Below, piece after piece: positions 15,864 to 32,000 of a stretch of 32,000 bases of DNA. The stretch is from an uncultured delta proteobacterium (GTDB lineage: Bacteria > Desulfobacterota > RBG-13-43-22): positions 29,972 to 61,971 of the forward strand of contig CAVQSS010000014.1 of assembly GCA_963716045.1 (NCBI GenBank). Direction: 5' to 3'. The notes beneath the pieces are model-generated. The model did not search any database. It was not told where the DNA came from and saw nothing but the letters and a program-made list of their open reading frames with translations. Positions within the stretch are counted from its first letter, which is position 1, and every line of letters starts with the position of its first letter. Position numbers and translations under genes: made by a program.

Positions 15864-16688
15864 ATGCGCTCTAGTGAAATGGACCAACGCGGTCTGGGCA
15901 TACGGGACATGGTCCAGCATCTGACCGGAGGCCGTCCTTTTATTTTTATGATCATGGCCTATGACGACAGGTGGGAACTCTTCAAGCGGATCAGCCAGAT
16001 TGTCGCGAAGCATTTTGACCTGGCCTGCATCCGGGCCGATCATGTCAAAGGCGCCGGCTATGACCTCCTGGCCAAGATACATCTATTAATCAGCCGTTCC
16101 GAACTGGTCATAGCCGATATCAGCAAACCGAGCCCCAACGTCTATTATGAAATCGGCTACGCGGTGGGGGCCCGGAAGCAGCCCCTGCTGCTGGTTCAAA
16201 AGGGTACGGAAATCCCCACGGATTTGAAAGGCCTGGAGGTCGTGGAATACCGGTATGACCGTGACGGCAAGAAGGCCTTTGAAAAGGAATTGGTCGATCA
16301 TCTCCGACTGCGTTTGAGTTCGGAGTTGCCTCTGTTGCGGGACATGTTGGAATCGCCGGTTTCGCAACCGGCCTACATCGTCAGCAGCCCCAAATACCCA
16401 GGAAGGCATAGCCGTCTATCTGGGGCAGGTCTACGACCGGCGAACCTTTGGCGACCACCTGGGCATCCTGGGGCTGATCTCGGCCTTCGGCTCCATGTGG
16501 GGGGAAGCCAAGGGCATAGATCTAATTTCCGGGCAGCACAGCCCCCCCGACCTTCTGGACCTTCCCGCCAGCCTCTATTTAATCGGTTCCGGAAAGGTCA
16601 ACGCCCCTTCAGGGAAGATGCTGGCCCTGCTCCAGGGGGACAGAGAGCCGAACTGGCATTTTGGTCCGGCCCCGGGATATTCTTATGA
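15864..16688 (+). CDS. Nucleoside 2-deoxyribosyltransferase-like / TIR-like Rossmannoid domain protein; 5' part of a frameshifted gene
   Basis: GAGGAGG lies 9 nt before the ATG. Residues ~20-175 look coding (PFIFMIMAYDD...VIADISKPSPNVYYEIGYAVGARKQPLLLV, the NDT/TIR-clan pattern with conserved Glu). After ...AYIVSSPKYPG (about 16400) the frame becomes Arg/Gly/Pro junk while frame +1 becomes sensible. Confidence 0.55.
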   Translation: MRSSEMDQRGLGIRDMVQHLTGGRPFIFMIMAYDDRWELFKRISQIVAKHFDLACIRADHVKGAGYDLLAKIHLLISRSELVIADISKPSPNVYYEIGYAVGARKQPLLLVQKGTEIPTDLKGLEVVEYRYDRDGKKAFEKELVDHLRLRLSSELPLLRDMLESPVSQPAYIVSSPKYPGRHSRLSGAGLRPANLWRPPGHPGADLGLRLHVGGSQGHRSNFRAAQPPRPSGPSRQPLFNRFRKGQRPFREDAGPAPGGQRAELAFWSGPGIFL

Positions 16689-20504: not shown

Positions 20505-20963
20505 CTAACTCCTCTGGCCGTGGTCTTCGGCGCAAAGGTATAAAGGAGAGTGGCTCTCCTGGCTTTTTCGGACCAACAAATCAAGATGATCCCATCCGAG
20601 ATATTCATCAAAGGCGGCCTTTCCCCACTGTAAGCACTGGAGTTCGCCGGCCATACCTGCAGGAAGACTCCCTTTACAGATAGGTAGTACCGGGATGTTA
20701 TGGGCCGTTGCGAAACCAATTTCTTGTTGAACCCATCCCTTTTTGATGGATTCCGGAGTAAAAAGCGGGAGGAAAACATGGGCATGGGCAATCGACTCTT
20801 CTATTTGATCCCGGAATCTGGTGCCCGGGATGAAGCCCTTGTCCATGATCGGTTGCAGACGATCGTCCTGATCCAAATAATTGAAGATTTCTTTGGCCAG
20901 CGTTTCATCTTTTTCATTATGGGAGTAACAGATAAAGATGCGATAAGGGTTATTGGCCTTCAT
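20505..20963 (-). CDS. Stand-alone TIR-domain protein
   Basis: MKANNPYRIFICYSHNEKDETLAKEIFNYL..., then VFLPLFTPESIKKGWVQQEIGFA with the conserved Glu of the W..(E) helix. The start at 20963 is preferred to 21026 because it fits the domain boundary, but no strong SD supports either. Confidence 0.75.
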   Translation of the reverse strand: MKANNPYRIFICYSHNEKDETLAKEIFNYLDQDDRLQPIMDKGFIPGTRFRDQIEESIAHAHVFLPLFTPESIKKGWVQQEIGFATAHNIPVLPICKGSLPAGMAGELQCLQWGKAAFDEYLGWDHLDLLVRKSQESHSPLYLCAEDHGQRS

Positions 20964-21110
20964 TGTTTCGCCTGCGGATTGGTCGGGGATAAGTGAATGC
21001 GGGAATCGGTAATGGTGATTCCCCATGCTTTACCAGGGCCGTGGTCCGGATAGATCCAGAACTTGCCCACCCGGGTCAAAGTGGAGGTCGTTGTGGGGGA
21101 GAGGGTAATT

Positions 21111-21593
21111 TCATTCATAAGGATAAAGCCTTTCCAATTCGTCAATGGTAACGGGCTGATTGCCATGATAAACCTGGAGAAAGCAAACCTGGCCATTTGG
21201 CTGGGTAAGAATAGCCTGCCCGTCGGATTTCAGAAGACAGGCCTCGCATTTCGACTCTCCATGCCAGAAGACCCTTCGGGAGTACAACCCCTTAAAAATA
21301 GTCAGATATCCACCTTTTTCACTTGAATGAAATAAAGTCCGCGAAACATTTAGTTTTCCTGCAATGGCTGTGCGGAGTACCGGAAATCTGTGGAGGGCAT
21401 CCTCAAGAGTATAGGAATTGATAGCCCGTCCCTCCCGGTCCCAGAGTCGCAGCAGCGTAGCGTCATCTGACCAGGAGAGGAACCGGTCGTCTTTGGTTTC
21501 CAGGGCACATAGGACCGAGTCCGTATGTCCTTCAAGGACGGCCGGGGGCGTCCCTCCCGGTCCCACAGCCGCAGCGTATGGTCTCCTGACCAA
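21111..21593 (-). CDS. Last WD40-like unit plus a unique ~105-aa C-terminal tail of the NLR-like gene (separate ORF only because of indels)
   Basis: It reads sensibly from AVLEGHTDSVLCALETKDDRFLSWSDDATLLRLWDREGRAINSY... to the stop at 21111. The first ~17 codons of the track ORF are out-of-frame repeat sequence. Confidence 0.6.
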   Translation of the reverse strand: MVRRPYAAAVGPGGTPPAVLEGHTDSVLCALETKDDRFLSWSDDATLLRLWDREGRAINSYTLEDALHRFPVLRTAIAGKLNVSRTLFHSSEKGGYLTIFKGLYSRRVFWHGESKCEACLLKSDGQAILTQPNGQVCFLQVYHGNQPVTIDELERLYPYE

Positions 21594-23225
21594 GAGAGGA
21601 AACGGCCGTCTTTGGTTTCCAGGACACCTCGGACCGAGTGCTTATGTCCTTCAAGGACGGCCTGGGGGCGTCCCTCCCGGTCCCACAGCCGCAGCGAGTC
21701 TCCTGACCAAGAGAGGAAACGGCCGTCCTTGGTTTCCAGGGCACCTTGGACAAATAGTCCTTATGTCCTTCAAGGACGGCCTGGGGGCGTCCCTCTCGGT
21801 CCCACAGGCGCAGCGTAGGGTCTCCCCAAGAGAGGAAACGGCCGTCTTTGGTTTCCAGGGCACCTCGGACCAAGTACGTATGTCCTTCAAGGACGGCCTG
21901 GGGGCGTCCCTCCCGGTCCCACAGGCGAAGCGTATAGTCATTTGACCAGGATGACCAGGAGAGGAAACGGCCGTCTTTGGTTTCCAGGGCACCTCGGACC
22001 AAGTCCGTATGTCCTTCAAGGACGGCCTGGGGGCGTCCCTCCCGGTCCCACAGGCGAAGCGTACGGTCTCCTGACCAAGAGAGCAAACGGCCGTCTTTGA
22101 TTTCCAGGGCACCTTGGACCGAGTCCGTATGTCCTTCAAGGACGGCCTGGGGGCGTCCCTCCCGGTCCCACAGGCGAAGCGTACGGTCTCCTGACCAAGA
22201 GAGCAAACGGTCGTCTTTGGTTTCCAGGGCACCTTGGACCAAGTTCGTATGTCCTTCAAGGACGGCCTGGGGGCGTCCCTCCCGGTCCCACAGACGCAGC
22301 GTACGGTCTCCTGACCAAGAGAGGAAACAGCCGTCTTTGGCTTCCAGGGCACCTTGGACCAAGTTCGTATGTCCTTCAAGGACGGCCTGGGGGCGTCCCT
22401 CCCGGTCCCACAGGCGCAGCGTATGGTCTCCTGACCAAGAGAGGAAACGGCCGTCTTTGGTTTCCAGGGCACCTCGGACCAAGTTCGTATGTCCTTCAAG
22501 GACGGCCTGGGGGCGTCCCTCCCGGTCCCACAGGCGCAGCGTAGGTCTCCTGACCAAGAGAGGAAACGGCCGTCTTTGGTTTCCAGGGCACCTTGGACCA
22601 AGTTCGTATGTCCTTCAAGGACGGCCTGGGGGCGTCCCTCCCGGTTCCACAGGCGCAGCGTATGTCATTTGACCAGGAGAGGAAACGGCCGTCTTTGGTT
22701 TCCAGGGCACCTTGGACCAAGTTCGTATGTCCCTCAAGTACGGCCTGGGGGCGTCCCTCCCGGTCCCACAGGCGCAGCGAGTCTCCTGACCAAGATAGGA
22801 AACGGCCGTCTTTGGTTTCCAGGGCGCCAATGACCGATTTCTTATGTCCTTCAAGGACGGCCTGGGGGCGTCCCTCCCGGTCCCAGAACCGCAGCGTATG
22901 GTCTCCTGACCAAGAGAGGAAACGGCCGTCTTTGGTTTCCAGGGCGCCAATGGACCGACTTCTTATGTCCCTCAAGGACGGCCTGGGGGCGTCCCTCCCG
23001 GTCCCAGAGCCGCAGCGTAGCGTCATTTGACCAGGAGAGAAACGGCCGTCCCTGGTTTCCAGGACGCCATGGACCCGATCCGTATGTCCATTAAGTACGA
23101 CCTGGGGGCGTCCCTCCCGGTCCCACAGGCGCAGCGTATGGTCTCCTGACCAAGAGAGGAAACGGCCGTCTTTGGTTTCCAGGGCACCTTGGACCAAGTT
23201 CGTATGTCCTTCAAGGACGGCCAGA
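21424..23225 (-). repeat. Tandem array of 15 WD40-like coding units (consensus 120 bp / 40 aa: LEGHTNLVQGALETKDGRFLSWSGDHTLRLWDREGRPQAV)
   Basis: The anchor aacggccgtc recurs at 21601, 21718, 21837, 21966, 22086, 22206, 22326 (variant), 22446, 22565, 22684, 22801, 22921, 23041 and 23161, plus a divergent copy near 21481. Spacings are mostly 120 nt (also 117, 119 and 129). Confidence 0.9.
21532..22557 (-). CDS. WD40-repeat segment of the NLR-like gene (internal ORF created by frameshifts)
   Basis: It translates as 6-7 consecutive canonical units (TLRLWDREGRPQAVLEGHTNLVRGALETKDGRFLSWSGD...) before leaving frame near 21750. Confidence 0.6.
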   Translation of the reverse strand: MVRRPTLRLWDREGRPQAVLEGHTNLVRGALETKDGRFLSWSGDHTLRLWDREGRPQAVLEGHTNLVQGALEAKDGCFLSWSGDRTLRLWDREGRPQAVLEGHTNLVQGALETKDDRLLSWSGDRTLRLWDREGRPQAVLEGHTDSVQGALEIKDGRLLSWSGDRTLRLWDREGRPQAVLEGHTDLVRGALETKDGRFLSWSSWSNDYTLRLWDREGRPQAVLEGHTYLVRGALETKDGRFLSWGDPTLRLWDREGRPQAVLEGHKDYLSKVPWKPRTAVSSLGQETRCGCGTGRDAPRPSLKDISTRSEVSWKPKTAVSSLGQETIRCGCGTGRDAPGRP

Positions 23226-25369
23226 CAGGGATTTTTTCCGGCATGCGGCACTCGTTGAACTCGGCGCAGCCATGACCAGTCACATCTCCCTTCCTCGAGC
23301 CACTTTTCGGCGCCCATGGTCAGTGGGCTGTCATCGGCGTGTTCGATGGCGAGTTGAATCAGGATCATATAGGCCGGCCATTCGGGGTTGCCCCGGCTGA
23401 CGATATGGGCCTTTTCCCGAAAAAATGCAGCCTCCAGATCCAGGGTTCTATCTACATCGAACAAAGAGATCGGAAGTTCCCGTAAATCTTTTAAAAGCCT
23501 TTCGAGCATACCTCGGCGGGTCTTTTCCATCAGGTAACGAAAATCTTTCAGGAGAAGGGCCAGCCTTGGGTAATCTTCGATCACCCGCAGGTGGGACGGC
23601 AGCCACTCAATAAAATAGTCCTCCATGGTTTCCGGCCCGGCTTCGTATTGCGACCAGCCATCATCAACGAGCAGCTTATGGCCGTGGGCCGTGTCGATGT
23701 AGTAGGGATAAGCGCTCTGGTTGACCGTGATCCAATCACGGATGGTCCCGTGGAAGGGCCGGATGGTATCATTGTCACTCTCCCCGCTGGCGGGAAACAG
23801 GGAGCCGAGGCGGTTGAGCCGGCGGAACAGGTCGGTTTTGCTTTCAAGCCCCCGGGACCTTTGGAGATAGCCCAGGGTCAGGGGCTCGAAGGAGGCCAGG
23901 ATAAGGTAGAGTAAGGGGGTGATTTCCTCCTCATAGTAGGTAAGGTCAGCGGCAAACTGGCGATCAAAAAAATGTTTGTATACGTCGCCCAGGCCCCGGG
24001 GGAATTCATCCGGATGGATCAAGCGGAGGCGACCGTTCCGGACCTCCTCGTAAACATAACGAATATACAGAAAGATACCTTCACTGCGGTCGATGAGGAT
24101 TTGAGTCAGCTCCGAGGTAATATCCGGGAACTGGGACCGAAGGAATTTACGGATATCTTCCAGGTTTTCCGCCCGGGAGGCGTCCAGGACATAAGGAGAA
24201 AGGGCCTGGAAGGAGGAGCGTATTTCCGGCTCCGGCCGGGAGGTGACCAGAAAACGCAGCCAGTGAGGCGTCTTGGGGGCGCAGAAGGTCAGGAACCGAA
24301 CGATTTCGTTCTGCCGCCGGTAGGTGGCCTCATCCAGGGCATCGATCAATATGACAATAGGGCGGTCCGGCTCCGGAAAATTGGGCGCCAGAGGTTGGAC
24401 AATTAATTTGTCAAAAAGGGTATACGCCTCGTGGAATTCCTGGACGATGGTTTCAAGGGGAAGCCTGGCCAGGCAGTCTAAGTAGTCGGGAAGCTGGGTG
24501 GAAAGCTGGTAGGCGATTGAAAGGACCAGCCGGGAAGGATCCCGCTTCTCCTCGCTGTTAACGTCGCAGAAATGAAAAGCGGCGATCTCCCTTCGGTGGT
24601 CGCGGATCCAGGCGGCCATGGCGCTCTTGCCGACCCCCGGGGCCCCGGTGATCCAGAAGATCCTTTTTCCGGAGGGGTCCTTCAACCAGGCATCGACTTC
24701 CTCGAACACCCACCGGCGGCCGGTGAAGTCCCGCAGAAGTCTGATGATGTCGGCGGAAAACTGGATGGGGCTGAGCACGCTCAGGAGGCGGCTTTGGGTG
24801 CCTTCAAAGTCCAGTTGTTTATCCTCGATGGCCCGGAGCAGGCGTTCGAAGAGGGGCTTATAGAAGGCCTCATTCTCGTTGATGGGGAGGCACTCCCGCA
24901 TATCCAGCCACTGGATGCGACAGATGGAAAGCGGGGGTTCGCTCTCGACAACCATCAGCGGGATGATGGAAAGCCCACGGGATAGGGCCCGGGCCACTTC
25001 GTTGAGGCAGTAACCATCCGGGCGGCGGACGGCGTGGGGGGTGAGGAGAAGCAGGACGGCGCTATTCGGAGGATCCTGGGTCAGGTCATCCAGGCCCTGC
25101 TCGATGAAGGCCTCCCAGTCATGGCCGGGCTGGAGCCGTTCCTCATCGAACCAGACCGTATGGCCCCTATCCTTCAGGTCGTCTTTGAGTCGAACGGCCA
25201 GCAAACTGTGCTCGTCGTGACCGTAGCTGATGAATAGGCGTCTGGGGATGAAAGGCTTTCCTATGAAAAACTCATGACGGCAGTCCGCACACAGATAAAG
25301 TTCCCGCTTCCTGCTGAAAACGACACTATCCGAATTGCAATGGGGACAGAAAGGTTTGTTGACGGCCAA
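22496..25369 (-). CDS. Zn-ribbon - TIR - NACHT/STAND NTPase - WD40 NLR-like protein (5' portion in one continuous frame)
   Basis: TTG start at 25369, 4 nt after GGAGGAGGGG. Motifs in order: CPHCNSDS...CADCRHEF zinc ribbon; TIR (RRLFISYGHDEHS...YCLNEVARAL); P-loop FWITGAPGVGKSAMAAW; Walker B VILIDALDEA; then WD40-like units from LAVLEGHTNLV. The true gene evidently continues to 21111. Confidence 0.85.
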   Translation of the reverse strand: MAVNKPFCPHCNSDSVVFSRKRELYLCADCRHEFFIGKPFIPRRLFISYGHDEHSLLAVRLKDDLKDRGHTVWFDEERLQPGHDWEAFIEQGLDDLTQDPPNSAVLLLLTPHAVRRPDGYCLNEVARALSRGLSIIPLMVVESEPPLSICRIQWLDMRECLPINENEAFYKPLFERLLRAIEDKQLDFEGTQSRLLSVLSPIQFSADIIRLLRDFTGRRWVFEEVDAWLKDPSGKRIFWITGAPGVGKSAMAAWIRDHRREIAAFHFCDVNSEEKRDPSRLVLSIAYQLSTQLPDYLDCLARLPLETIVQEFHEAYTLFDKLIVQPLAPNFPEPDRPIVILIDALDEATYRRQNEIVRFLTFCAPKTPHWLRFLVTSRPEPEIRSSFQALSPYVLDASRAENLEDIRKFLRSQFPDITSELTQILIDRSEGIFLYIRYVYEEVRNGRLRLIHPDEFPRGLGDVYKHFFDRQFAADLTYYEEEITPLLYLILASFEPLTLGYLQRSRGLESKTDLFRRLNRLGSLFPASGESDNDTIRPFHGTIRDWITVNQSAYPYYIDTAHGHKLLVDDGWSQYEAGPETMEDYFIEWLPSHLRVIEDYPRLALLLKDFRYLMEKTRRGMLERLLKDLRELPISLFDVDRTLDLEAAFFREKAHIVSRGNPEWPAYMILIQLAIEHADDSPLTMGAEKWLEEGRCDWSWLRRVQRVPHAGKNPCLAVLEGHTNLVQGALETKDGRFLSWSGDHTLRLWDREGRPQVVLNGHTDRVHGVLETRDGRFSPGQMTLRCGSGTGRDAPRPSLRDIRSRSIGALETKDGRFLSWSGDHTLRFWDREGRPQAVLEGHKKSVIGALETKDGRFLSWSGDSLRLWDREGRPQAVLEGHTNLVQGALETKDGRFLSWSNDIRCACGTGRDAPRPSLKDIRTWSKVPWKPKTAVSSLGQETYAAPVGPGGTPPGRP

Positions 25370-25495: not shown

Positions 25496-25783
25496 TTAGC
25501 GGGAAGCGGGGCGATTTATATTCCGGGAGCAGGCCCTAAGGGGAAATTCAATCCTAATAACCTGTCTGGGATACCAGGAGTAGCAGCGGTGTCCCAGGTA
25601 GATCACCTCTCCGGCTAATATCTTCCAATAAAGCGGCGGGTCGAAGCCCACCGTTCCGCAGATGGTGGGGACCAGGCGGATGCCGAAGATATCCCCGGAC
25701 ACAATCCAGACCCGGGGACAAACAAAAATGATCAGGAGATAAAAGATACCGACCCGGACGAGGATTTTCCCAAAGATGTTCAT
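25496..25783 (-). CDS. Small (95 aa) hypothetical protein with an N-terminal TM helix
   Basis: The ATG at 25783 overlaps the TGA of the upstream ORF (ATGA), suggesting translational coupling. ILVRVGIFYLLIIFVCPRVWIV is a TM segment. I recognise no family. Confidence 0.45.
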   Translation of the reverse strand: MNIFGKILVRVGIFYLLIIFVCPRVWIVSGDIFGIRLVPTICGTVGFDPPLYWKILAGEVIYLGHRCYSWYPRQVIRIEFPLRACSRNINRPASR

Positions 25784-26046
25784 CGGGGCTTTTTACTCCG
25801 GGCACTCTCCGGCCGAGTAAACCCCCAAAAACCGACTTCCGTCTTTTTCGAACCTATCCCCGGTTGAGCGACATCCAGGATTCCCTGAATCACCTCCCGC
25901 GCCTCAGACTCCAATTTCCCGGCCGCTTCCCGCAGGACCTCCAGATCGTTCAGACGTTTGGCCACCAGATGGAGCCTGGAAACATTGGCCTGGATGATGT
26001 TTTTCAACGGAAGCCACAAAGACTGGCCGCCCCAGGGGACTTCCAC
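25780..26046 (-). CDS. 3' part of the orphan gene downstream of the vWA gene (different frame from its 5' part)
   Basis: This frame is open upstream to at least 26139 and reads sensibly from about 26090 (GPGSLYRRLLKAYRCFLAVEVPWGGQSLWLPLKNIIQANVSRLHLVAKRLNDLEVLREAAGKLESEAREVIQGILDVAQ...). Confidence 0.5.
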   Translation of the reverse strand: MEVPWGGQSLWLPLKNIIQANVSRLHLVAKRLNDLEVLREAAGKLESEAREVIQGILDVAQPGIGSKKTEVGFWGFTRPESARSKKPR

Positions 26047-26953
26047 GGCGAGGAAACAGCGATAGGCCTTCAGGAGGCGCCGGTACAGGGATCCGGGCCC
26101 GCTGCGGCAACTCGTTGAGTCGGTCCCCTTCCAGTTGAATCAGCAGTTCCAGGAACGCATTGATGGGAGGTTGCGGATAAACGTCTCCAAAAAAACGCAG
26201 CAGCTCCTCGTTCACGGCGTTGCGCAGGTCACACAACTTCCCGTCCAGGCATAAATAGAGCAGTTCGATGGCGTTTTGAAATTGAACCAATCCGATCTGC
26301 CCGGCTGTCTGGACCGCCAACCGTTGATCGTCATGCCAGGCGGCCTGAAAAACCCGCCGGCCCAGCTCAAAAAGCAAATCATCCATTTCCCGGATCGTCG
26401 GGGTACCCGGGGTCCCGCCCCTTTTGCCTACCTGTTCCCGAAACTGGGAAAGGCGTAGAAAATAGCCTTCGTGCCCCTGATGCATCAACTTGACAAACCG
26501 GATATCCGGGGCCGGATACCCGGAGCTTTGATAGACATCGTCCACGACCAGGCTGTATTCTGAAAAAAAGTCTTTCCGGACCCGATATAGATAATAAACG
26601 GGCAGGCCGCTGGAACGCTGGCGCACATCCAGATAGAGAAAGGGGTCCAGGTCATAGAGAACCCTTCTCAGCGTTTCCCGGTTCACCAGGCATACCTTTT
26701 CTTTTTCGAACGGGGTCTCGAGGACGATGTCTTGCGCCAGGGTCTCGGTCAGCCGCCGAAGATCCCGGATGGTCCAGAGGGATTGTTCCATCTTCACTCT
26801 CAACCGGTCGTAGTTTCGGAGGTGGTCGATAAAAGGCTCCAGTGCCCGGTACAGATCCTGATCCGTAACGTACGTCACCCGGGGAGCGACGTACGGATAG
26901 GTATCGGCGTAAAAACCGTGATAGGGAGAACCGTATTGGTAGTGGTAAGCCAT
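25904..26953 (-). CDS. Orphan protein with a Tyr-rich N-terminus (5' part; about 390 aa if joined to 25780..26046)
   Basis: The ATG at 26953 (MAYHYQYGSPYHGFYADTYPYVAPRVTYV...) lies 14 nt after the vWA stop and is preceded by AAAGGGGAAG. The sequence is sensible up to ...LIQLEGDRLNELPQ, then becomes Pro/Gly/Arg junk. I recognise no domain. Confidence 0.55.
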   Translation of the reverse strand: MAYHYQYGSPYHGFYADTYPYVAPRVTYVTDQDLYRALEPFIDHLRNYDRLRVKMEQSLWTIRDLRRLTETLAQDIVLETPFEKEKVCLVNRETLRRVLYDLDPFLYLDVRQRSSGLPVYYLYRVRKDFFSEYSLVVDDVYQSSGYPAPDIRFVKLMHQGHEGYFLRLSQFREQVGKRGGTPGTPTIREMDDLLFELGRRVFQAAWHDDQRLAVQTAGQIGLVQFQNAIELLYLCLDGKLCDLRNAVNEELLRFFGDVYPQPPINAFLELLIQLEGDRLNELPQRARIPVPAPPEGLSLFPRRGSPLGRPVFVASVEKHHPGQCFQAPSGGQTSERSGGPAGSGREIGV

Positions 26954-26969
26954 AATCTTCCCCTTTCGG

Positions 26970-29087
26970 CTATCGTTTGGCCACCAGCCGGCTTCGTTCC
27001 TTGATGCAGGAAGCCACGTACAGGCCGATCTTCTCGGCCACGGCCCCATAGTTCTCCAACTCCGGTCCGGAAACGGTGATCACCCGGTCAAGCAGATCCT
27101 CAAACCCCGTCTCCCCCGACACCCCGAGGGCCACCAGGGTCGTATGGAGCTTGTGGGATTTGGATTCATAAAGGCCGCGAAACAATTCCTGGACTTCCTG
27201 CCTGCCGTCGCGATCAGTCCGGAAACTCCGATTCCAGGCAGTATCGGATAAGACAATGAGATAGATCATGTCCCCCCGGGCCAGGCGCCCGGCCTCCTCC
27301 AGAATAAAGGCCAGGGAGAGGGCATCCGACTGCACTCCCGTCCCGCTGGCGGGCAGGGACACCAGGGCGCGGACCGCGTCCAGCCGGCTGGCCGCCGGCG
27401 TCTTTTCCGGGTGATAGAGCCACTGGACCAGGGGACCACTGAGGCCCTTCCGGATTTGCCCGCTGTGATACAGTGCCGCCAGGAATTGGATCTGAGTCCG
27501 GGAGGTGGAATTAGCCTCGGCCGCACACAATATCTTGACCATTTTCATTTGATTTTGATTCAGTGACCCGGAGCCGTCACAGGCGACGACCAGTACCGGC
27601 CGGCCCCGGGGATCGGCCCGTTCTTCGAGGCGATAGCGGCGGTAAATGGTCGAGGAGAAGCCCGCCAGGGCCAGCCGGGCCGGATCGATGGACCCACTGG
27701 TTCGGAGCCGCTGGGTTTCCGGTATCTGATCCACGCTGGGATATAAATTTCTCCTTAAGGCTTCGGTGATGGGTTGGGCGGCCCTCAAGAGATCTTCACA
27801 GGCAGCGGGATTGTGAGCCGGTTCTACGGGTCGGTCATAGATTTCCCCGGCGGCGGGCTGCCCTCCCAAAGAAATCGTTACTTCGTGGCCATCCGCCGGA
27901 TGGCCTTCAATGAGGCCTCCCTGAAAGGGAGACGCCGCCAAAGACTTCTCCACCAGATCCGAACGCATGTCCTCCCACTGGCGGTCCTGTCCGCCGGCCT
28001 GGGCCAGGGCCTCCGAAAAACGGTTCAGGGTCTTTTTGAAATCCTCCATCAGCGGATCGGCCTCGGGCTGGGCTTTCCCACCGGCTTCGAGCGGTTCCAG
28101 GGCCTTGAAAGCGGCGTTGATGAAGGCATCCTTGGCCGTGGCCGTTTCGAACAGAGCCGGCGCCTGAAGTCCTTCCAGCGGCGCGAAATCCCCGCTCTCG
28201 ATAAACCCCATGAGATTTCTATGGAAGCGGTACCCCGTTGGGTTGAATTTTTTTCCGGTATCAGCGGAGGACCCGCCGATGCTATCAGGGTCCGCTGTCG
28301 CCGGCGACGGCAAGTAGACGGCCAGCCCTCGGCAGACGACCCGCACCCAAGAGCTACCCAAGGAAAGCATCTGCGGCCCTCGGGAATGGCCGATCTTAAC
28401 CAGGAATGGAGCGGAGAGATCGTACAATTCCTGCAGCAAGATTCGGGTAAAGGGATGGAGCTCCAAATCCCGCCAGTCGGGAAGAAGGTCCCCGAAAAGG
28501 ATGACCGCCCTCAGGATCTCCGGGAGATAGCGGAATTGCAGGCTCTGCTGGGAGGCGGAAAACAGCCGGTAGGCCTCTACTGCCTTCAGGGATTCCGTCT
28601 GCACCAGGTCTTCCAACAACAGTCGCTTATGGACCAGTTCGGCCACGGTTTTACAAAGTTTTCTATAAATATCCGGATCCACCTCGACCTCATCGAAGGC
28701 CCCCGGGTTTTCCAGGTATTCTTTGAGGTCCGCGACCAGCGACTTCTGCGGCACCCGGGCTTCGTATTCCAAAAAAGCGGTTTGCCCGATGGCGGCCACG
28801 GCGGCCGGTGTGGCCGGATAGGTGGTATAACACGGCCCCAGTTGCGGTTTGACCTTGGGTTGGAAATCGGATTCCCGCTCGCCGCAGAGTCGGGCCACCT
28901 TTTTCTGGATCTTTTGCACTTCCCGGTAAAACAGGCGCAGGGCCGGCAGCCGGTCGGGGTAGTCCAGGCTGCTTTTAAAGGCATCGCCCAGACTGGTTCC
29001 GGCCCAGTTCGATTTCAACCTTTTTTCATAAGAAGGATAGGAGTACCCTTCCCAGGTTGTTTTCTTTTGACGGCTTTCTCCGTTCAT
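26970..29087 (-). CDS. vWA-domain protein of the NorD/CbbO/CobT-like class (long N-terminal region plus a C-terminal MIDAS-containing vWA)
   Basis: The ATG at 29087 (MNGESRQ...) follows GGGAGG. The C-terminal third shows SGSIDPARLALAGFSSTIYRRYRLEE...RPVLVVACDGSGSL (DxSxS MIDAS), later SGTGVQSDAL and IVLSDTAWN. This matches the layout of AAA-partner vWA proteins. Confidence 0.8.
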   Translation of the reverse strand: MNGESRQKKTTWEGYSYPSYEKRLKSNWAGTSLGDAFKSSLDYPDRLPALRLFYREVQKIQKKVARLCGERESDFQPKVKPQLGPCYTTYPATPAAVAAIGQTAFLEYEARVPQKSLVADLKEYLENPGAFDEVEVDPDIYRKLCKTVAELVHKRLLLEDLVQTESLKAVEAYRLFSASQQSLQFRYLPEILRAVILFGDLLPDWRDLELHPFTRILLQELYDLSAPFLVKIGHSRGPQMLSLGSSWVRVVCRGLAVYLPSPATADPDSIGGSSADTGKKFNPTGYRFHRNLMGFIESGDFAPLEGLQAPALFETATAKDAFINAAFKALEPLEAGGKAQPEADPLMEDFKKTLNRFSEALAQAGGQDRQWEDMRSDLVEKSLAASPFQGGLIEGHPADGHEVTISLGGQPAAGEIYDRPVEPAHNPAACEDLLRAAQPITEALRRNLYPSVDQIPETQRLRTSGSIDPARLALAGFSSTIYRRYRLEERADPRGRPVLVVACDGSGSLNQNQMKMVKILCAAEANSTSRTQIQFLAALYHSGQIRKGLSGPLVQWLYHPEKTPAASRLDAVRALVSLPASGTGVQSDALSLAFILEEAGRLARGDMIYLIVLSDTAWNRSFRTDRDGRQEVQELFRGLYESKSHKLHTTLVALGVSGETGFEDLLDRVITVSGPELENYGAVAEKIGLYVASCIKERSRLVAKR

Positions 29088-29134
29088 GTCCAGGCCTCCC
29101 ACCGGCCCGCTCCAACGAGACCGAAACGGGTCGG

Positions 29135-30139
29135 TTAAAAAAGTTCGGCAGTCAGGGCGTCTTCTTCCTCCACGTCGGCGTGAAGACCGAAAACCTCGTT
29201 GAACACGGCGGCCACGTGTTTGCGGTCTTCGTGCCCGGCATTGCCCAGGAGCGTGGTCAGGGCGATCTGCTGGAGACTCAGGTCGGGCAGGGCCCGGACC
29301 AGGCGCAGGAAGCTGAGGTATCCGTAAATCGTCGGCGGGGCCAGCGATTGCAGGTTTCCTTCCGAGCGGTGTCTGCGGATCACGTTCCCGAGTTGGACCA
29401 CCTTCACCAGCAGATCAAAATCGATCGTTTCCTGCCGGAGTATATGCTGCAGTATCTGGACCTCCTGTTCCGCCGGGAGGTAGTCCAGGGTGAGCGGGAC
29501 CGAAAACCGCCTTTTTAGGGCGTCATCCAGCGTCACCAAGGTGTGGGTGGAATCCTGCTCCGCCTGATAGTTGCTGTCCGCGATCCAGCTTATCTGCGCG
29601 CCGTCCAGGCGGGACCCGTCAGGAAGGACGATATCCCCCTTGACGATCAGGTTGAGCAATCCCCCCTGGACGCTGGAAGAATGGACCCGGCCGATCTCGC
29701 ACAGCCAGATCAACGGATAAGCCCGATCCCGGTGGGCGAACGCATCCTCCAGAAATTCCACCAGCCGGCTTTTCTCGTCATAGGTGGTTCCGTCCTTCAA
29801 GGCCCGGCGCTGATACAATTCCCCCGGCGCCTCGTAAGTTGCCATCTCCACCCGATAGAGCTTCAGGGGCCGCACCGGGTACCCCAGACCCGAGCAAAGG
29901 GCGTTGAAGTTCTCGGGGACCAGATAGAGGGTCTCCAATAAGGAGGACTTGGCTGTTCCCGAAGGCCCGGAGAGATGAACAAATTCGTGATTCACGATGG
30001 AATAGGTCAATACCAGTAAGATCCATTTAGGAATAAACAGAGGATTATAACCCGGAGCGGGCAGCAACTCGACGAGATCCGAGGCCCCGGCCTTTCGGTA
30101 TTCATTGGTCTTCCAGATTCGATACACGTTGCCGGCCAT
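29135..30139 (-). CDS. MoxR/AAA_5-like AAA+ ATPase
   Basis: AAAGGAGAA lies 6 nt before the ATG. Walker A is HLSGPSGTAKSSLLE. The Walker B region LIWLCEIGRVHSSSVQGGLLNLI parallels MoxR hhhhDEINRA...QSALLE but has Cys in place of Asp. DDALKRRF corresponds to the ..A...RF sensor/Arg-finger block. Confidence 0.8.
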   Translation of the reverse strand: MAGNVYRIWKTNEYRKAGASDLVELLPAPGYNPLFIPKWILLVLTYSIVNHEFVHLSGPSGTAKSSLLETLYLVPENFNALCSGLGYPVRPLKLYRVEMATYEAPGELYQRRALKDGTTYDEKSRLVEFLEDAFAHRDRAYPLIWLCEIGRVHSSSVQGGLLNLIVKGDIVLPDGSRLDGAQISWIADSNYQAEQDSTHTLVTLDDALKRRFSVPLTLDYLPAEQEVQILQHILRQETIDFDLLVKVVQLGNVIRRHRSEGNLQSLAPPTIYGYLSFLRLVRALPDLSLQQIALTTLLGNAGHEDRKHVAAVFNEVFGLHADVEEEDALTAELF

Positions 30140-30218
30140 GATGTTCTCCTTTCCATTGGGGTTGTTGTCCTACCAAAAACAATTTGATCTCACCCCGGTC
30201 CCGCGAGTGGAGACCGGC

Positions 30219-32000
30219 TCAGATCGGAAGTATTATCAATGCCCCCTGAGGAGACACCGATACCGTCAACTGCGTACACCCGGCAACGTCCCCCCTTTTC
30301 CTGAATTCCATTACGGACTGAGAAGCGAGTTTCCGGCCGTGTTCCAACAGGGTCCGGGCGCCCAGAGTCAGGACATTGGTCTGCATTGAATCCAAAACCT
30401 TTTGGCCCACGTCATTTTCATAGCTTATCGATTCGATAGACAAGCCGAGGCGCGCTATGGCCAGGGGGATGGCCTGCCGGATAGCGCCTTCGACAATTAC
30501 GCCCAGTGTCCGCCCCTCCAGTGGGTCGAAGAGGATGGGTGTCCCCACCCGGCTGAGAAAGGCGCTTGAAGTCATGAGCTTAACTTCCTTGATAACCTCC
30601 CGGGTCAATTCCCGGTTGCTCGGCCGGTTGTCGTACCCGATTCGCTTCCGGACCCGTTCGTCGGCGCCACCGGGAAGATTCATGGAAAAAACGAAAAGGA
30701 TGTTGGCACAAGAAAAAAGTCCTCCCTGGGCACTCTGGGCCTCGCCCTTGTCCAGGACCAAGAGAAATAGGTCCGCCAGGGCTGCCCGCAGACCGGGAAC
30801 CGCATGATCCAGGTCGGCTACCTCGCAGACCACACCGGTATGGTGTTTGGCCATCTGCTCCAGTCGGCCCGGCTGGTAGGATTGCACAATCCCCCGACCG
30901 GAGCCTAAAAGCTGGCTTCGTGCCGTGTGGGGGTCGGACAGGCTGGCGGCATCGATCACCTGGTAGGGGACCCCAATAAAATTCGCCAAGAGCCGGACGC
31001 TTTCCGATTTGGCCGTCCCCGGGGTTCCTTGAAGGGCACAGCGCAGCGGTTGATGGTCCGGCCGGGTGAGGCATTCACTCGCGAGCCGGGAAATTTCCTC
31101 TTCCAGTGCCCGATCCTGGCCGAATATCCTCGATTTTAAAAACAGCAGAAGTGCCGGATCGGTCAGGGTTTCGGTGAAGCGACGCTGAACCTGGGACGAA
31201 CGTTTACACCGGAGGGAAGGGCTCAAGCCTCCCAAGGTCTCCGATTGGGCTACGATCCTGGAACCAAATTGCCCGGAGCACGTCTTTATTCCTGCCAGCC
31301 GCAACCGTACGCAGCGAGAGGCGATGAAGGGTAAAAGCCGTTCCTGTTCTTCCGGTGGCAGGCTTTGGAGTTCGTCTTGAGTCTGTGCCACCAGTTCCTG
31401 TTCCACTTTCTGGGAAAGACCCCCTTCCGCCCGCCCGGCCGCATAGACGCAAAATCGGACCAGTGTTTCCCCGGCAACCTTGGGAACCTGCCGGACAACC
31501 GGCGCCAGGGGATCGTTTTTCGCCCCCTGGCCACCGTGGAAGACGGTCTGGAGTTCTTCCAGGCTGCCGGTAAAAACCGCCGGCCGGCGTTCATGAGACA
31601 GGGATTGTAAAAAGGCTGTCATCTCATGGCCCAGTTCATAGGGACTGGAGGACAGACTCAAACGAATGGCCGGGATGACCACCGTTCCGGGAGCCTTCCC
31701 GGACAACTCCAGGAGCCCCTTGCTCCCGATGGACGGCAGCAGCAGTCGTCCAAGAGATTGGCCGAACCCCTGAAGGATTCGGGCCAGGACTCCCAGGGCA
31801 AATTCGACAGCCACCTTCGAGGGTGCGGCGAGTGCCACACTGGCTGAACCCCAAAGGAAGTCAACGGTTTCCCCGGCCCAGGACACGATCTCCTGCGCCA
31901 AGGGAATAAAACGCTCCGGACAGGGAGGGATCGGTTCCAGGCTTTCCTTGAACTCCCCGTACCGTTCCTGGAGGGCGGCGTCGTCTTCCAGTTCCGGCAT
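30219..32000 (-). CDS. ClpA/ClpB D2-like (AAA_2) AAA+ ATPase with a long unassigned N-terminal region
   Basis: The C-terminal half is collinear with the Clp D2 module. IFGQDRALEEEISRL corresponds to (v)iGQd.A; LQGTPGTAKSESVRLLANFIG to the P-loop; IDAASLSDPHTARSQLLGSGRGIVQSYQPGRLEQ to DMSEy.e.h.vs.LiGaPPGYvGy.eGG.Lt; VVCEVADLDHAVPG...LLVLDKGE to vvLlDEiEKAh..v.n.LLQvlDdG; and ANILFVFSMNLPG to n.iiimTSN.G. The ATG is exactly the last 3 nt of the window, so the true start could lie outside it. Confidence 0.7.
   Translation of the reverse strand: MPELEDDAALQERYGEFKESLEPIPPCPERFIPLAQEIVSWAGETVDFLWGSASVALAAPSKVAVEFALGVLARILQGFGQSLGRLLLPSIGSKGLLELSGKAPGTVVIPAIRLSLSSSPYELGHEMTAFLQSLSHERRPAVFTGSLEELQTVFHGGQGAKNDPLAPVVRQVPKVAGETLVRFCVYAAGRAEGGLSQKVEQELVAQTQDELQSLPPEEQERLLPFIASRCVRLRLAGIKTCSGQFGSRIVAQSETLGGLSPSLRCKRSSQVQRRFTETLTDPALLLFLKSRIFGQDRALEEEISRLASECLTRPDHQPLRCALQGTPGTAKSESVRLLANFIGVPYQVIDAASLSDPHTARSQLLGSGRGIVQSYQPGRLEQMAKHHTGVVCEVADLDHAVPGLRAALADLFLLVLDKGEAQSAQGGLFSCANILFVFSMNLPGGADERVRKRIGYDNRPSNRELTREVIKEVKLMTSSAFLSRVGTPILFDPLEGRTLGVIVEGAIRQAIPLAIARLGLSIESISYENDVGQKVLDSMQTNVLTLGARTLLEHGRKLASQSVMEFRKRGDVAGCTQLTVSVSPQGALIILPI

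What the first reader, a model, noticed from the sequence alone, without database searches (positions are those of the whole stretch)
25496..32000. Candidate undescribed five-gene cassette: ClpB-D2-like AAA+, MoxR-like AAA+, NorD/CbbO-like vWA, orphan Tyr-rich protein and small TM protein, directly upstream of a TIR-NACHT-WD40 gene
Five co-directional genes are packed with gaps of 79, 47 and 14 nt and a 4-nt ATGA overlap, so they probably form one operon.

What is known: the MoxR-type ATPase plus C-terminal-vWA pair is the well-known remodelling module of NorQ/NorD, CbbQ/CbbO and RavA/ViaA. Comparative-genomic work has also predicted MoxR-vWA ternary conflict systems that recruit a third, repeat-bearing or effector protein.

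What I see here:
- The pair has no visible metabolic client (no Rubisco, NOR or chelatase genes).
- It is preceded by a second, Clp-like AAA+ protein.
- It is followed by two proteins with no family I can recognise, one of them a short membrane protein.
- It sits inside an island of TA and TIR/NLR genes.

I know of no named defence system with this gene set, so it is the best candidate for something new in this window. A function in phage defence or effector activation is inference from context only.
Basis: partly seen in the sequence, partly recalled or inferred. Interest (0 to 1): 0.85.

Follow-up and report, generated by a model that had tools for sequence, protein, structure and literature searches.

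The report
Sigma-54-gated MoxR-vWA four-gene remodelling cassette
The region holds most of a conserved, unnamed four-gene operon (two AAA+ ATPases, a vWA adaptor and a protein with no known fold) that relatives keep behind a sigma-54 promoter and a dedicated activator inside immune-gene islands; it is probably an inducible conflict system, and this copy looks broken.

Summary
The cassette is real, but it has four genes, not five.

**Genes in the window**
- A (30219-32000) is a Clp-D2-like AAA+. The window end cuts it: 593 of about 747 aa are present.
- B (29135-30139) is a MoxR/CobS-like AAA+.
- C (26970-29087) has an all-alpha N-domain plus a MIDAS vWA domain.
- D (25780-26953) has no known fold.
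- The "small TM protein" (25496-25783) has no homologues, shows no coding constraint and contains a terminator-like hairpin.
- The TIR-NACHT-WD40 gene lies in a 4.3-kb segment absent from a 95.5 %-identical relative.

**Conservation**
- A-B-C-D is colinear in 44 loci from at least 9 phyla, all MAGs.
- B-C-D is the minimal core.

**Outside the window, in relatives**
- A divergent, family-specific sigma-54 activator occurs in 25 of 44 loci.
- A -24/-12 promoter lies upstream of A in 18 of 35 loci, against about 2.8 expected.
- RelA/SpoT-RyR, NUDIX, TIR and NACHT genes are frequent neighbours.

**Databases**
- Pfam, NCBIfam and PADLOC have no model for C or D.
- The closest description is the computationally predicted MoxR-vWA ternary systems of Kaur et al. 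2020, especially the "FtsH" type. A is Clp-type, not FtsH-type.

**Verdict**
- New variant of a known, untested kind.
- A defence function is inferred from context only.

The parts
30219..32000 (-). Gene A, 3' four-fifths only (593 of about 747 codons; cut by the window end). It combines a family-specific N-terminal region with a Clp/Hsp100 D2-type AAA+ module.
   Evidence: - Pfam AAA_2 E 1.7e-7. NCBIfam ClpA D2 region E 6e-14.
- Family profile against PDB: ClpA D2 1.1e-19, followed by ClpC, Hsp104 and ClpB.
- Homologues are 747-780 aa.
- Family motifs (Walker B and pore-loop equivalences from the ClpA alignment): Walker A is GTPGTGKS (GTPGTAKS in the window). Walker B is 'SD' instead of 'DE'. 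The pore loop is GIVG instead of GYVG. The sensor-2 'GAR' is kept.
- The N-terminal roughly 440 aa has no PDB or AAA+ similarity.
29135..30139 (-). Gene B, a divergent MoxR/CobS-clade AAA+ ATPase of 334 aa.
   Evidence: - Pfam AAA_5 E 1.3e-4.
- Family profile against PDB: CobS 3.8e-7 and the MoxR-family structure 2r44 2.5e-5.
- The P-loop is GP[ST]G[ST]AKS, which fits the GXXXTAKS variant reported by Kaur et al..
- In Walker B the Asp is replaced by R, C or K, while the Glu is invariant.
- 40 synonymous versus 4 non-synonymous codon changes against L041.
- Present in every locus that is not cut by a contig end.
26970..29087 (-). Gene C, 705 aa. It has an all-alpha N-terminal domain (about residues 25-258), a disordered linker (about 259-340) and a C-terminal vWA/MIDAS domain (about 395-705).
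   Evidence: - No Pfam, NCBIfam, PADLOC or PDB sequence hit, even with a family profile.
- AF2 model: pLDDT 80.9.
- Foldseek probability 1.0 to vWA domains, including NorD in NorQD complexes and the MDN1 MIDAS domain.
- D504, S506 and S508 are invariant, and downstream T583 and D615 are conserved.
- 95 homologue clusters, all annotated 'hypothetical'.
25780..26953 (-). Gene D, the family-defining third component (390 aa when intact). In the window a 1-nt insertion at about 26091 disrupts it: the 5' part reads in frame down to a stop at 25904, and the 3' part (25780-26090) continues in another frame.
   Evidence: - The frameshift is shown by alignment to homologues and to L041.
- D follows C in all 41 loci that have enough downstream sequence.
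- Family size: 88 clusters, or 262 representatives among 1.84 billion proteins. All are stand-alone proteins of 330-400 aa.
- AF2 model: pLDDT 88.7, pTM 0.82.
- No Foldseek match in PDB (best E 0.48) or in BFVD (best E 0.13).
- The N-terminal roughly 30 residues are disordered and rich in Tyr, Gly and Asp.
25634..25653 (-). Terminator-like GC-rich hairpin followed by a T-tract, about 130 nt after the D stop. It is the probable end of the operon.
   Evidence: - Pattern scan. A single hit is no more than chance on its own.
- The stem is identical in L041, and the only change is in the loop. It lies in the best-conserved stretch of an otherwise fast-changing segment.
25496..25783 (-). It is probably not a gene and is better read as the 3' untranslated tail of the operon.
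   Evidence: - No tblastn match in 40 loci.
- Against L041: 11 synonymous versus 25 non-synonymous codon changes, with similar ratios in all three frames, and about 10 % DNA divergence against 4.5 % for the cassette.
- It contains the hairpin listed above.

Best explanation
**What is shown**
- The window holds the distal part of a conserved operon, A-B-C-D. Its core is a MoxR-vWA pair: B, a MoxR/CobS-like AAA+, and C, an all-alpha domain plus a MIDAS-bearing vWA domain.
- The pair is locked to a third, family-specific protein, D, of unknown fold.
- In 38 of 40 informative loci it is joined by a second ATPase, A, a Clp-D2-type AAA+ with a unique 440-aa N-terminal region.
- In relatives the operon lies behind a sigma-54 -24/-12 promoter and next to a dedicated enhancer-binding protein. 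It should therefore be transcriptionally silent until that activator is switched on.
- The unit is rare, phyletically scattered and embedded in variable islands of TIR, NACHT/STAND, RelA/SpoT-RyR and NUDIX genes.

**What is inferred**
- It is an inducible biological-conflict system (phage or MGE defence, or abortive response) of the MoxR-vWA 'ternary' kind.
- A signal, possibly a nucleotide made or erased by the linked RelA/SpoT-RyR, NUDIX and TIR genes, activates the enhancer-binding protein's private N-terminal domain.
- The operon is then expressed. C's MIDAS site grips an acidic or disordered segment, either D's Tyr/Asp-rich N-terminal tail or an invader protein.
- The two ring ATPases, both with non-canonical Walker B motifs and so probably slow, switch-like engines, remodel or release D as the output component.
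- The copy in this window is probably non-functional or mis-assembled, because D is frameshifted.
For: **Gene set and order**
- Conserved in 44 loci from Desulfobacterota, Acidobacteriota, Nitrospirota, Planctomycetota (Brocadiia), Lentisphaerae, Kiritimatiellae, Hydrogenedentes, Myxococcota and Bacteroidota.
- Purifying selection acts on A-D.

**Component identities**
- B is MoxR/CobS-like.
- C has a vWA fold resembling NorD and the MDN1 MIDAS domain, with an invariant DxSxS motif.
- A is Clp-D2-like.
- D is confidently folded but without structural neighbours. It is never found outside the cassette or fused to other domains.

**Regulation**
- A family-specific activator is present in 25 of 44 loci. 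It scores Sigma54_activat 1.6e-59 and carries a GAFT-xA loop. Most often it is divergent from A, but it is also found co-directional upstream (L019) or downstream of D (L044).
- A -24/-12 element lies at -45 to -95 of A in most of the 18 of 35 loci that have one on the sense strand. Only 1 of 35 has one on the antisense strand, and about 2.8 are expected from background.

**Context**
- RelA/SpoT-RyR occurs in 16-17 loci, NUDIX in 11, TIR in 10 and DUF4062/NACHT in 11 of 44 loci.
- The window itself carries TIR, TIR-NACHT-WD40 and HipA genes.
- Neighbouring content differs between genomes that are 95.5 % identical.
- No conserved metabolic client is present.

**Precedents**
- MoxR-vWA ternary conflict systems have been predicted (PMC7159879).
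- Sigma-54/RtcR-type activators have been proposed to control predicted defence operons (PMC11090510).
Against: - No experiment exists for this or any related ternary system. Defence is guilt by association only.
- Unlike the described ternary systems, neither C nor D carries variable effector domains. All four proteins are invariant in architecture, which is more typical of a dedicated machine than of a diversifying immune system.
- About 19 of 44 loci show no recognisable conflict gene within 10 kb.
- No PADLOC model hits A-D.
- The cassette is absent from plasmid, phage and IMG/VR collections.
- Both ATPases lack a canonical Walker B, so they may not hydrolyse ATP efficiently.
- The link between the RelA/SpoT-RyR module and the activator may reflect shared ancestry of a sub-clade rather than signalling.
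- The promoter and regulator are not in the window and could not be retrieved for this genome.
Confidence: 0.48

Rival explanations
1. A dedicated stress-response, proteostasis or maturation module rather than an immune system. B and C act like NorQ/NorD, CbbQ/CbbO or CobS/CobT to mature or reactivate an endogenous client, most simply D itself, for example by loading a metal site. A acts as an auxiliary unfoldase. Sigma-54 control would provide stress-induced expression, as in the Psp or Rtc systems.
For: - B's best solved relative is CobS, and C's vWA resembles NorD.
- All four proteins have fixed architecture, with no effector swapping.
- D has invariant or near-invariant His, Cys, Asp and Glu residues (GHE, WHEDQ and two Cys in LYLCLSGELC) that could form a metal or active site.
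- The layout of a divergent bEBP plus a sigma-54 operon mirrors pspF-pspABCDE and rtcR-rtcBA (established knowledge).
- 19 of 44 loci lack obvious conflict neighbours.
Against: - No conserved metabolic or structural client gene lies nearby.
- The distribution is extremely sparse and patchy: 40 of 185,579 species representatives, across at least 9 phyla.
- The flanks are hyper-variable between near-identical genomes.
- TIR, NACHT and RelA/SpoT-RyR/NUDIX genes recur in different arrangements.
Confidence: 0.3
2. It is simply a member of the already described 'FtsH-type' MoxR-vWA ternary system of Kaur et al. 2020. A would be that system's two-AAA+ third component and D its stand-alone effector (NEFF1), so nothing would be new.
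For: Shared features reported in PMC7159879:
- a MoxR P-loop of the form GXXXTAKS;
- a highly divergent vWA fused to a large all-alpha N-domain;
- an extra AAA+ protein with a non-ATPase N-terminal part;
- effectors encoded as stand-alone neighbours;
- occurrence in deltaproteobacteria and planctomycetes.
Against: - A's active module is Clp D2/HCLR-type (AAA_2, ClpA D2 1e-19, GAR sensor-2) and not FtsH/classical AAA.
- Profile comparison gives no sign that A's N-terminal region is an AAA+ domain.
- D is confined to this cassette, with 262 representatives and none fused or in other contexts, whereas NEFF1 is said to be shared with the abundant VMAP systems.
- No radical-SAM, Ubl, E1, E2 or JAB genes were seen among the annotated neighbours.
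- The paper's text mentions no sigma-54 activator.
- No Pfam model hits A's N-terminal region, C or D at E<=5. B only grazes bpMoxR (E 0.03).
Confidence: 0.15
3. Not a functional unit here. The window copy is a decaying remnant, with D frameshifted and possibly the neighbouring NLR too, so whatever the family does, this locus does nothing.
For: - There is a +1 insertion in D at about 26091, not in a long homopolymer.
- The WD40 region of the adjacent NLR continues in another frame (21532-22557 versus 22496-25369).
Against: - A, B, C and both halves of D still show strong purifying-selection signatures against L041. Any inactivation is therefore very recent, or the indel is an assembly error.
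- This concerns only this copy, not the family.
Confidence: 0.4

Closest known systems
FtsH-type MoxR-vWA ternary conflict system (Kaur, Burroughs, Iyer & Aravind, eLife 2020; PMC7159879); computational prediction only
   Same: - MoxR + vWA core with a further AAA+ protein.
- MoxR P-loop variant GXXXTAKS.
- vWA highly divergent and fused to a large all-alpha N-terminal domain.
- Effector or partner encoded as a separate small gene.
- Found in deltaproteobacteria and planctomycetes, in conflict-gene neighbourhoods.
   Different: - The extra ATPase is Clp-D2/HCLR-type, not FtsH-type, and its N-terminal half shows no AAA+ similarity.
- The constant fourth protein D is a private family of unknown fold.
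- No Ubl-ligase, radical-SAM or peptide-processing genes are present.
- There is a dedicated sigma-54 activator and promoter.
- There is recurrent linkage to RelA/SpoT-RyR + NUDIX + TIR genes.
Metabolic MoxR/vWA maturases: NorQ/NorD, CbbQ/CbbO, CobS/CobT, RavA/ViaA
   Same: - AAA+ of the MoxR/CobS clade followed by a protein with a C-terminal MIDAS vWA domain.
- C's vWA superposes on NorD in NorQD complexes.
- B's best PDB relative is CobS.
   Different: - No NOR, Rubisco, chelatase (CobN) or respiratory-complex genes lie nearby.
- The Walker B Asp is lost in B.
- There is an extra Clp-like ATPase and the orphan D.
- Control is by sigma-54.
- The cassette lies in a defence-island setting.
Clp/Hsp100 unfoldases (ClpA/ClpB/ClpC D2 ring)
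   Same: A's C-terminal 300 aa aligns over the whole D2 large and small subdomains, with Walker A, sensor-1 region, Arg-finger region and the GAR sensor-2.
   Different: - Single ATPase ring.
- Walker B DE is replaced by SD, and the pore-loop Tyr by Ile.
- No Clp_N or middle domain.
- A 440-aa family-specific N-terminal region is present instead.
bEBP-controlled stress and defence operons (PspF-pspA, RtcR-rtcBA, RtcR-like CARF activators next to CoCoNuT systems; PMC11090510)
   Same: An adjacent, usually divergent, sigma-54 activator with a private sensor domain drives a potentially harmful operon from a -24/-12 promoter.
   Different: - The N-terminal domain is not detectably CARF: PADLOC RtcR models match only the AAA+ part, and there is no PDB profile hit.
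- No Fis-type HTH is detected.

Membership tests
MoxR-vWA ternary conflict systems (Kaur et al. 2020), general | A MoxR-clade AAA+ gene adjacent to a vWA-domain gene | tested here: met
   - B matches AAA_5, CobS and 2r44.
- C has a vWA fold and MIDAS motif.
- The two are adjacent in all 44 loci.
MoxR-vWA ternary conflict systems (Kaur et al. 2020), general | A third conserved component found only in the system | tested here: met
   - D follows C in 41 of 41 loci with enough flank.
- The D family has 262 representatives, all stand-alone and of the same size.
- Locus tags of D and C hits are consecutive.
MoxR-vWA ternary conflict systems (Kaur et al. 2020), general | Highly variable effector domains or EADs fused to the vWA protein or to the third component | tested here: not met
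   - C homologues are uniformly 680-735 aa and end with the vWA domain.
- D homologues are 330-400 aa with no extra domains.
MoxR-vWA ternary conflict systems (Kaur et al. 2020), general | Statistical enrichment in multicellular or aggregating bacteria | not tested
   All carriers are uncultured MAGs and their lifestyle is unknown.
FtsH-type ternary subsystem | Third component with two FtsH-type AAA+ domains (N-terminal one inactive, C-terminal one active) | tested here: not met
   - The active domain is Clp D2-type: AAA_2, ClpA D2 1e-19, GAR sensor-2.
- N-terminal region against its own AAA+ domain by hhalign: probability 10 % or less.
- No PDB profile hit for the N-terminal region.
FtsH-type ternary subsystem | MoxR P-loop variant GXXXTAKS | tested here: met
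   The window has GPSGTAKS. The family consensus is GPTG[ST]AKS.
FtsH-type ternary subsystem | Divergent vWA fused to a large all-alpha N-terminal domain | tested here: met
   - In the AF2 model, residues 25-258 are all helical with pLDDT >90, followed by the C-terminal vWA.
- The vWA is invisible to Pfam.
FtsH-type ternary subsystem | NEFF1 or radical-SAM effectors, or a Ubl/E1/E2/E3/JAB module, in the operon | tested here: inconclusive
   - None was seen among the Pfam-annotated neighbours.
- No NEFF1 reference sequence was available to compare with D.
Metabolic MoxR/vWA maturases (NorQD, CbbQO, CobST) | Client enzyme genes (NOR, Rubisco, CobN, etc.) conserved next to the pair | tested here: not met
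   No such genes appear in the clusters shared between loci or in the annotated neighbourhoods.
Clp/Hsp100 D2 AAA+ (for protein A) | Canonical Walker A, Walker B (hhhhDE), aromatic pore loop (GYVG) and sensor-2 GAR | tested here: inconclusive
   - Walker A and GAR are present.
- Walker B is 'SD' and the pore loop is 'GIVG'.
- It is homologous to D2, but probably not a canonical threading unfoldase.
Sigma-54-dependent operon with dedicated bEBP | Adjacent activator with a Sigma54_activat AAA+ domain and a GAFTGA-type loop | tested here: met
   - Met in relatives only: Sigma54_activat 1.6e-59 and a GAFT-xA loop.
- Present in 25 of 44 loci, including the 95.5 %-identical L041.
- In this genome it lies beyond the window end.
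Sigma-54-dependent operon with dedicated bEBP | -24 GG / -12 GC promoter upstream of the first gene | tested here: met
   - 18 of 35 loci have one on the sense strand, clustered at -45 to -95. 1 of 35 has one on the antisense strand, and about 2.8 are expected.
- Not testable in the window, because the promoter is off-window.
Sigma-54-dependent operon with dedicated bEBP | C-terminal DNA-binding HTH in the activator | tested here: not met
   No HTH_8 or other HTH is found by Pfam. Instead there is a family-specific helical C-terminal domain of about 130 aa.
Named anti-phage systems (PADLOC-DB v2.0.0) | Any component matching a PADLOC model | tested here: not met
   - There are no hits for A-D or the 'E' ORF at E<=0.01.
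- Only neighbours hit: TIR and Avs-like models, PDC-S33 and PDC-S07, and RtcR-like models for the activator's AAA+ part.

The most novel reading that the evidence does not exclude
A previously unrecognised immune or programmed-dormancy pathway.
- An alarmone-like or ADPR-derived nucleotide, made by the linked RelA/SpoT-SLOG-RyR and TIR enzymes and erased by the NUDIX enzyme, is read by the private N-terminal domain of a sigma-54 activator.
- The activator then licenses transcription of a dual-AAA+/vWA machine.
- The sole job of that machine is to arm a novel-fold effector, D.

This would be transcriptional second-messenger immunity with a chaperone-gated output, and a fifth class of MoxR-vWA ternary system.
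Probability: 0.2. Interest if true: 0.85.

Novelty: new variant of a known kind. Interest (0 to 1): 0.62.

Why it matters
- MoxR-vWA 'ternary' systems are among the largest classes of predicted prokaryotic conflict systems, yet none has a demonstrated function.
- This family offers a compact, invariant version (B-C-D, usually with A) and a clean genetic switch: one sigma-54 promoter and one private activator. Induction, ATPase and MIDAS requirements would therefore be directly testable in an RpoN-containing host.
- It adds a confidently folded protein with no structural relatives.
- It adds two AAA+ ATPases with unusual Walker B motifs.
- It adds a recurrent physical link between a sigma-54 activator and a RelA/SpoT-RyR/NUDIX/TIR nucleotide module. 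That link would connect second-messenger immunity to transcriptional control, if it is real.
- If the system is instead a maturation system, D would be a new client class for MoxR/vWA chaperones.

Tried and rejected
- **Sequence-family searches.** Pfam, NCBIfam, PADLOC and PDB searches of C and D found nothing, even at permissive thresholds or with family profiles.
- **A's N-terminal region as an inactive AAA+ domain.** hhalign against A's own AAA+ module gave probability 10 % or less. A PDB profile search gave no hit. The idea is not supported but is not excluded without a structure model.
- **CARF or another known sensor in the activator's N-terminal domain.** The PADLOC RtcR models match only the AAA+ part, and the PDB profile search found nothing.
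- **A-B gene fusion in L029.** Rejected. The long ORF is an alternative-frame artefact, since the tblastn frames differ.
- **Mobile-element or viral origin.** There are no relatives of C in the PLSDB plasmid or INPHARED phage collections, and no relatives of C or D in IMG/VR.
- **Alternative conserved regulator or metabolic client in loci lacking the activator.** None was found.
- **Structured RNA or tRNA in the window.** None was found.
- **Retrieving the window's own contig beyond 32000.** The proteins are in the collection (62,226-bp contig), but the position look-ups failed. A first try was rejected for bad coordinates.
- **Whole-neighbourhood Pfam census through one large alignment.** It exceeded the residue limit and was replaced by local iterative HMM searches.
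- **Literature searches.** No named system with this gene set, and no described RelA/SpoT-RyR-NUDIX-TIR-bEBP combination, was found.

Full report
**1. What is in the window.**

Four corrections are needed.

- The first gene, A (30219-32000), runs off the window. Its homologues are 747-780 aa, and the ATG at 32000 is an internal Met at about residue 155.
- The 'Tyr-rich orphan' interval 25780-26953 is 1174 nt long. One frame reads 26953 down to a stop at 25904. A second frame (25780-26046) carries the conserved C-terminus.
- Alignment with homologues and with a 95.5 %-identical relative (L041) shows one extra T at about 26091. D is therefore frameshifted here and intact (390 aa) in L041.
- The gaps are 79, 47 and 16 nt. 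The D stop and the next ORF's start share an ATGA.

**2. The cassette is conserved, as four genes.**

- The vWA-candidate protein C has 95 homologue clusters, all full length at 36-58 % identity and all annotated 'hypothetical'.
- A scan of 185,579 species-representative genomes with a C alignment found 40 loci. All are MAGs, from Desulfobacterota, Acidobacteriota, Nitrospirota, Brocadiia, Lentisphaerae, Kiritimatiellae, Hydrogenedentes, Myxococcota and Bacteroidota. Four further annotated contigs were added.
- tblastn with the window proteins shows A-B-C-D in the same order and on the same strand wherever the contig allows:
  - B is in every locus that is not cut.
  - D is in 41 of 41 loci.
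  - A is in 38 of 40 loci. Two divergent loci, L031 and L040, have only B-C-D.
- From the D side, the family has 88 clusters, or 262 representatives among 1.84 billion proteins. All are stand-alone and 330-400 aa. NCBI locus tags of D hits are consecutive with those of C hits.
- Against L041, synonymous versus non-synonymous codon changes are 40/13 (A), 40/4 (B), 60/20 (C) and 36/20 (D). All four are under purifying selection.

**3. The fifth ORF and the NLR are not part of it.**

- ORF 25496-25783 has no match in any locus.
- It changes about twice as fast as the cassette, with 11 synonymous and 25 non-synonymous changes. The ratio is similar in all three frames.
- It contains a GC-rich hairpin plus T-tract (25653-25634). 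The stem is identical in L041 and lies in the best-conserved stretch. I read this segment as the operon's 3' tail and terminator.
- Homology to L041 ends at window 25500. The TIR-NACHT-WD40 gene (22496-25369) lies in about 4.3 kb that L041 lacks, so it is a variable neighbour.

**4. The four proteins.**

- **A.**
  - The C-terminal 300 aa is a Clp/Hsp100 D2 module. It matches Pfam AAA_2, the NCBIfam ClpA D2 region, and ClpA D2 at 1.1e-19 with a family profile, followed by ClpC, Hsp104 and ClpB.
  - Walker A and the GAR sensor-2 are kept. Walker B reads SD instead of DE, and the pore loop is GIVG instead of GYVG.
  - The N-terminal roughly 440 aa matches nothing, including A's own AAA+ module.
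- **B.**
  - It is a divergent MoxR/CobS-clade ATPase: AAA_5, CobS 3.8e-7 and the MoxR-family structure 2r44.
  - Its P-loop is GP[ST]G[ST]AKS.
  - Its Walker B Asp is replaced by Arg, Cys or Lys, while the Glu is invariant.
  - It has a conserved C-terminal GNLF.
- **C.**
  - It is invisible to sequence libraries, but its AF2 model is usable (pLDDT 80.9).
  - The model shows an all-alpha domain (25-258), a disordered linker and a vWA domain. Foldseek matches the vWA at probability 1.0 to C2a, the MDN1 MIDAS domain and NorD in NorQD complexes.
  - The DxSxS motif is invariant.
- **D.**
  - It folds confidently (pLDDT 88.7, pTM 0.82) into an alpha/beta sheet domain plus a helical bundle, preceded by a disordered Tyr/Gly/Asp-rich tail.
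  - It has no structural neighbour in PDB (best E 0.48) or BFVD (best E 0.13).

**5. Regulation, found outside the window.**

- Clustering of flanking ORFs revealed a protein of about 570 aa next to A in 21 loci, usually transcribed divergently.
- It is a sigma-54 enhancer-binding protein: Sigma54_activat 1.6e-59, AAA_lid_14 and a GAFT-xA loop. Its N-terminal domain (about 170 aa) and C-terminal domain (about 130 aa) are family-specific, and no HTH is recognisable.
- HMMs of those private domains find it in 25 of 44 loci, including L041. It sits divergent from A, co-directional upstream (L019) or downstream of D (L044).
- A -24/-12 element, matching TGGCACG-N4-TTGCW in at least 9 of 12 positions with GG and GC fixed, lies within -300 to +30 of A on the sense strand in 18 of 35 loci. 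Most are at -45 to -95.
- Only 1 of 35 loci has such an element on the antisense strand. About 2.8 are expected from the background rate of 0.245 per kb.
- The operon is therefore very probably sigma-54-dependent. For this genome that is inferred from L041, because the contig beyond 32000 could not be fetched.

**6. Context.**

- Within 10 kb of the cassette, the counts across 44 loci are:
  - a protein of about 850 aa combining RelA/SpoT, a weak SLOG-like signal and RyR, in 16-17 loci;
  - NUDIX in 11 loci;
  - TIR in 10 loci;
  - DUF4062/NACHT-TPR or -WD40 proteins in 11 loci.
- The RelA/SpoT-RyR gene is found in 16 of 25 activator-bearing loci and in at most 1 of 19 others. It lies on either side of the operon.
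- The window itself carries TIR genes, a HipA toxin and the NLR.
- No conserved metabolic client or alternative regulator was seen.
- C has no relatives in plasmid, phage or IMG/VR collections, and D has none in IMG/VR.

**7. Comparison with what is known.**

- No PADLOC, Pfam or NCBIfam model names the set.
- The nearest description is the MoxR-vWA 'ternary' conflict systems of Kaur et al. 2020 (PMC7159879), which are purely computational. Their FtsH-type subsystem shares three features:
  - the GXXXTAKS MoxR P-loop;
  - a highly divergent vWA with a large all-alpha N-domain;
  - an extra AAA+ protein.
- The present family meets those three features but fails the defining one. The extra ATPase is Clp-D2-type, not FtsH-type, and a second AAA+ domain could not be shown.
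- It also lacks the Ubl, radical-SAM and peptide modules, and it lacks variable effector fusions. Its constant third component, D, is private.
- Sigma-54/RtcR-like activators next to predicted defence operons have a precedent in the CoCoNuT systems (PMC11090510).
- I therefore file it as working like a MoxR-vWA ternary system, and as a new variant rather than a member of a described subtype.

**8. Mechanism.**

- Shown:
  - the composition, order and conservation of the cassette;
  - the folds of B, C and A's C-terminal module;
  - sigma-54 control in relatives;
  - the variable immune-gene context.
- Inferred:
  - the activator senses a signal, possibly a nucleotide from the linked RelA/SpoT-RyR, TIR and NUDIX genes, and turns the operon on;
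  - C's MIDAS engages an acidic or disordered segment, with D's tail the obvious candidate;
  - B and A, both with atypical Walker B motifs, act as slow remodelling switches that arm or release D.
- The main rival, at about 0.3, is a stress or maturation module with D as an endogenous (perhaps metal-dependent) client. The invariant architecture of all four proteins and D's conserved His, Cys and acidic residues favour it. The rarity, patchiness and hyper-variable immune flanks count against it.

**9. Verdict.**

- The find is a real, conserved and essentially uncharacterised system with several unusual features. It belongs to a kind already predicted in silico, its function is unproven, and this particular copy appears damaged.
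- Interest 0.62. Novelty: new variant of a known kind.

Noticed in passing
L041:1-4444 (also L044:18246-22121, L010, L014, L019, L020, L026, L033): A recurrent trio next to the sigma-54 activator: a protein of about 850 aa with RelA_SpoT, weak SLOG (LSDAT_prok) and RyR domains, a NUDIX hydrolase, and often a TIR protein. The RelA/SpoT part hits PADLOC candidate PDC-S33 and the NUDIX hits PDC-S07. It looks like a nucleotide-signal or toxSAS-like module in its own right.
   Followed up: partly
L001:8928-9961, L015:8902-9914, L028:8975-9990 (also L003, L004, L024): In several lineages gene B is split at the boundary between the AAA+ core and the lid into two ORFs of about 240 and 100 aa. The junction reads GGAGG-N5-ATGA, that is, an SD sequence plus overlapping stop and start. 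This is a natural, translationally coupled fission of an AAA+ ATPase rather than a sequencing error.
   Followed up: partly
window 21532-22557 and 22496-25369 (minus strand): The WD40 array of the TIR-NACHT-WD40 gene continues in a 341-aa ORF that overlaps its 3' end in another frame. The NLR may also be frameshifted, or mis-assembled, in this genome.
   Followed up: no
L031:8846-12828 and L040:8963-12816: The two most divergent loci (Myxococcota and an unclassified MAG) carry B-C-D without any A homologue. The Clp-like ATPase is therefore an add-on to a three-gene core.
   Followed up: partly
window 13860-15056, 15864-16688, 20505-21026: The rest of the window holds a HipA-family toxin kinase, a CAP12/Pycsar-type TIR-like protein and a stand-alone TIR protein. 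They sit beside housekeeping-looking genes (P-type ATPase 8670-11339, Usp 11329-12168).
   Followed up: no
L042:19497-22121: A second, unrelated MoxR (AAA_5) gene and an AAA_5-VWA fusion gene lie 7 kb downstream of the cassette in one relative. The same island also holds two DUF4062-STAND proteins.
   Followed up: no
Family alignments A7 (B) and A3 (A); window 29135-29150 for the B tail: B ends in a conserved C-terminal motif (consensus GNLF; ELF in the window), reminiscent of docking tails of ring ATPases. Both ATPases of the system have lost the canonical Walker B Asp.
   Followed up: no
L041:21890-22118 and L043:15602-20644: Very large RHS/YD-repeat (TEN_YD-shell) toxin-like genes occur in the same islands as the cassette in two relatives.
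   Followed up: no
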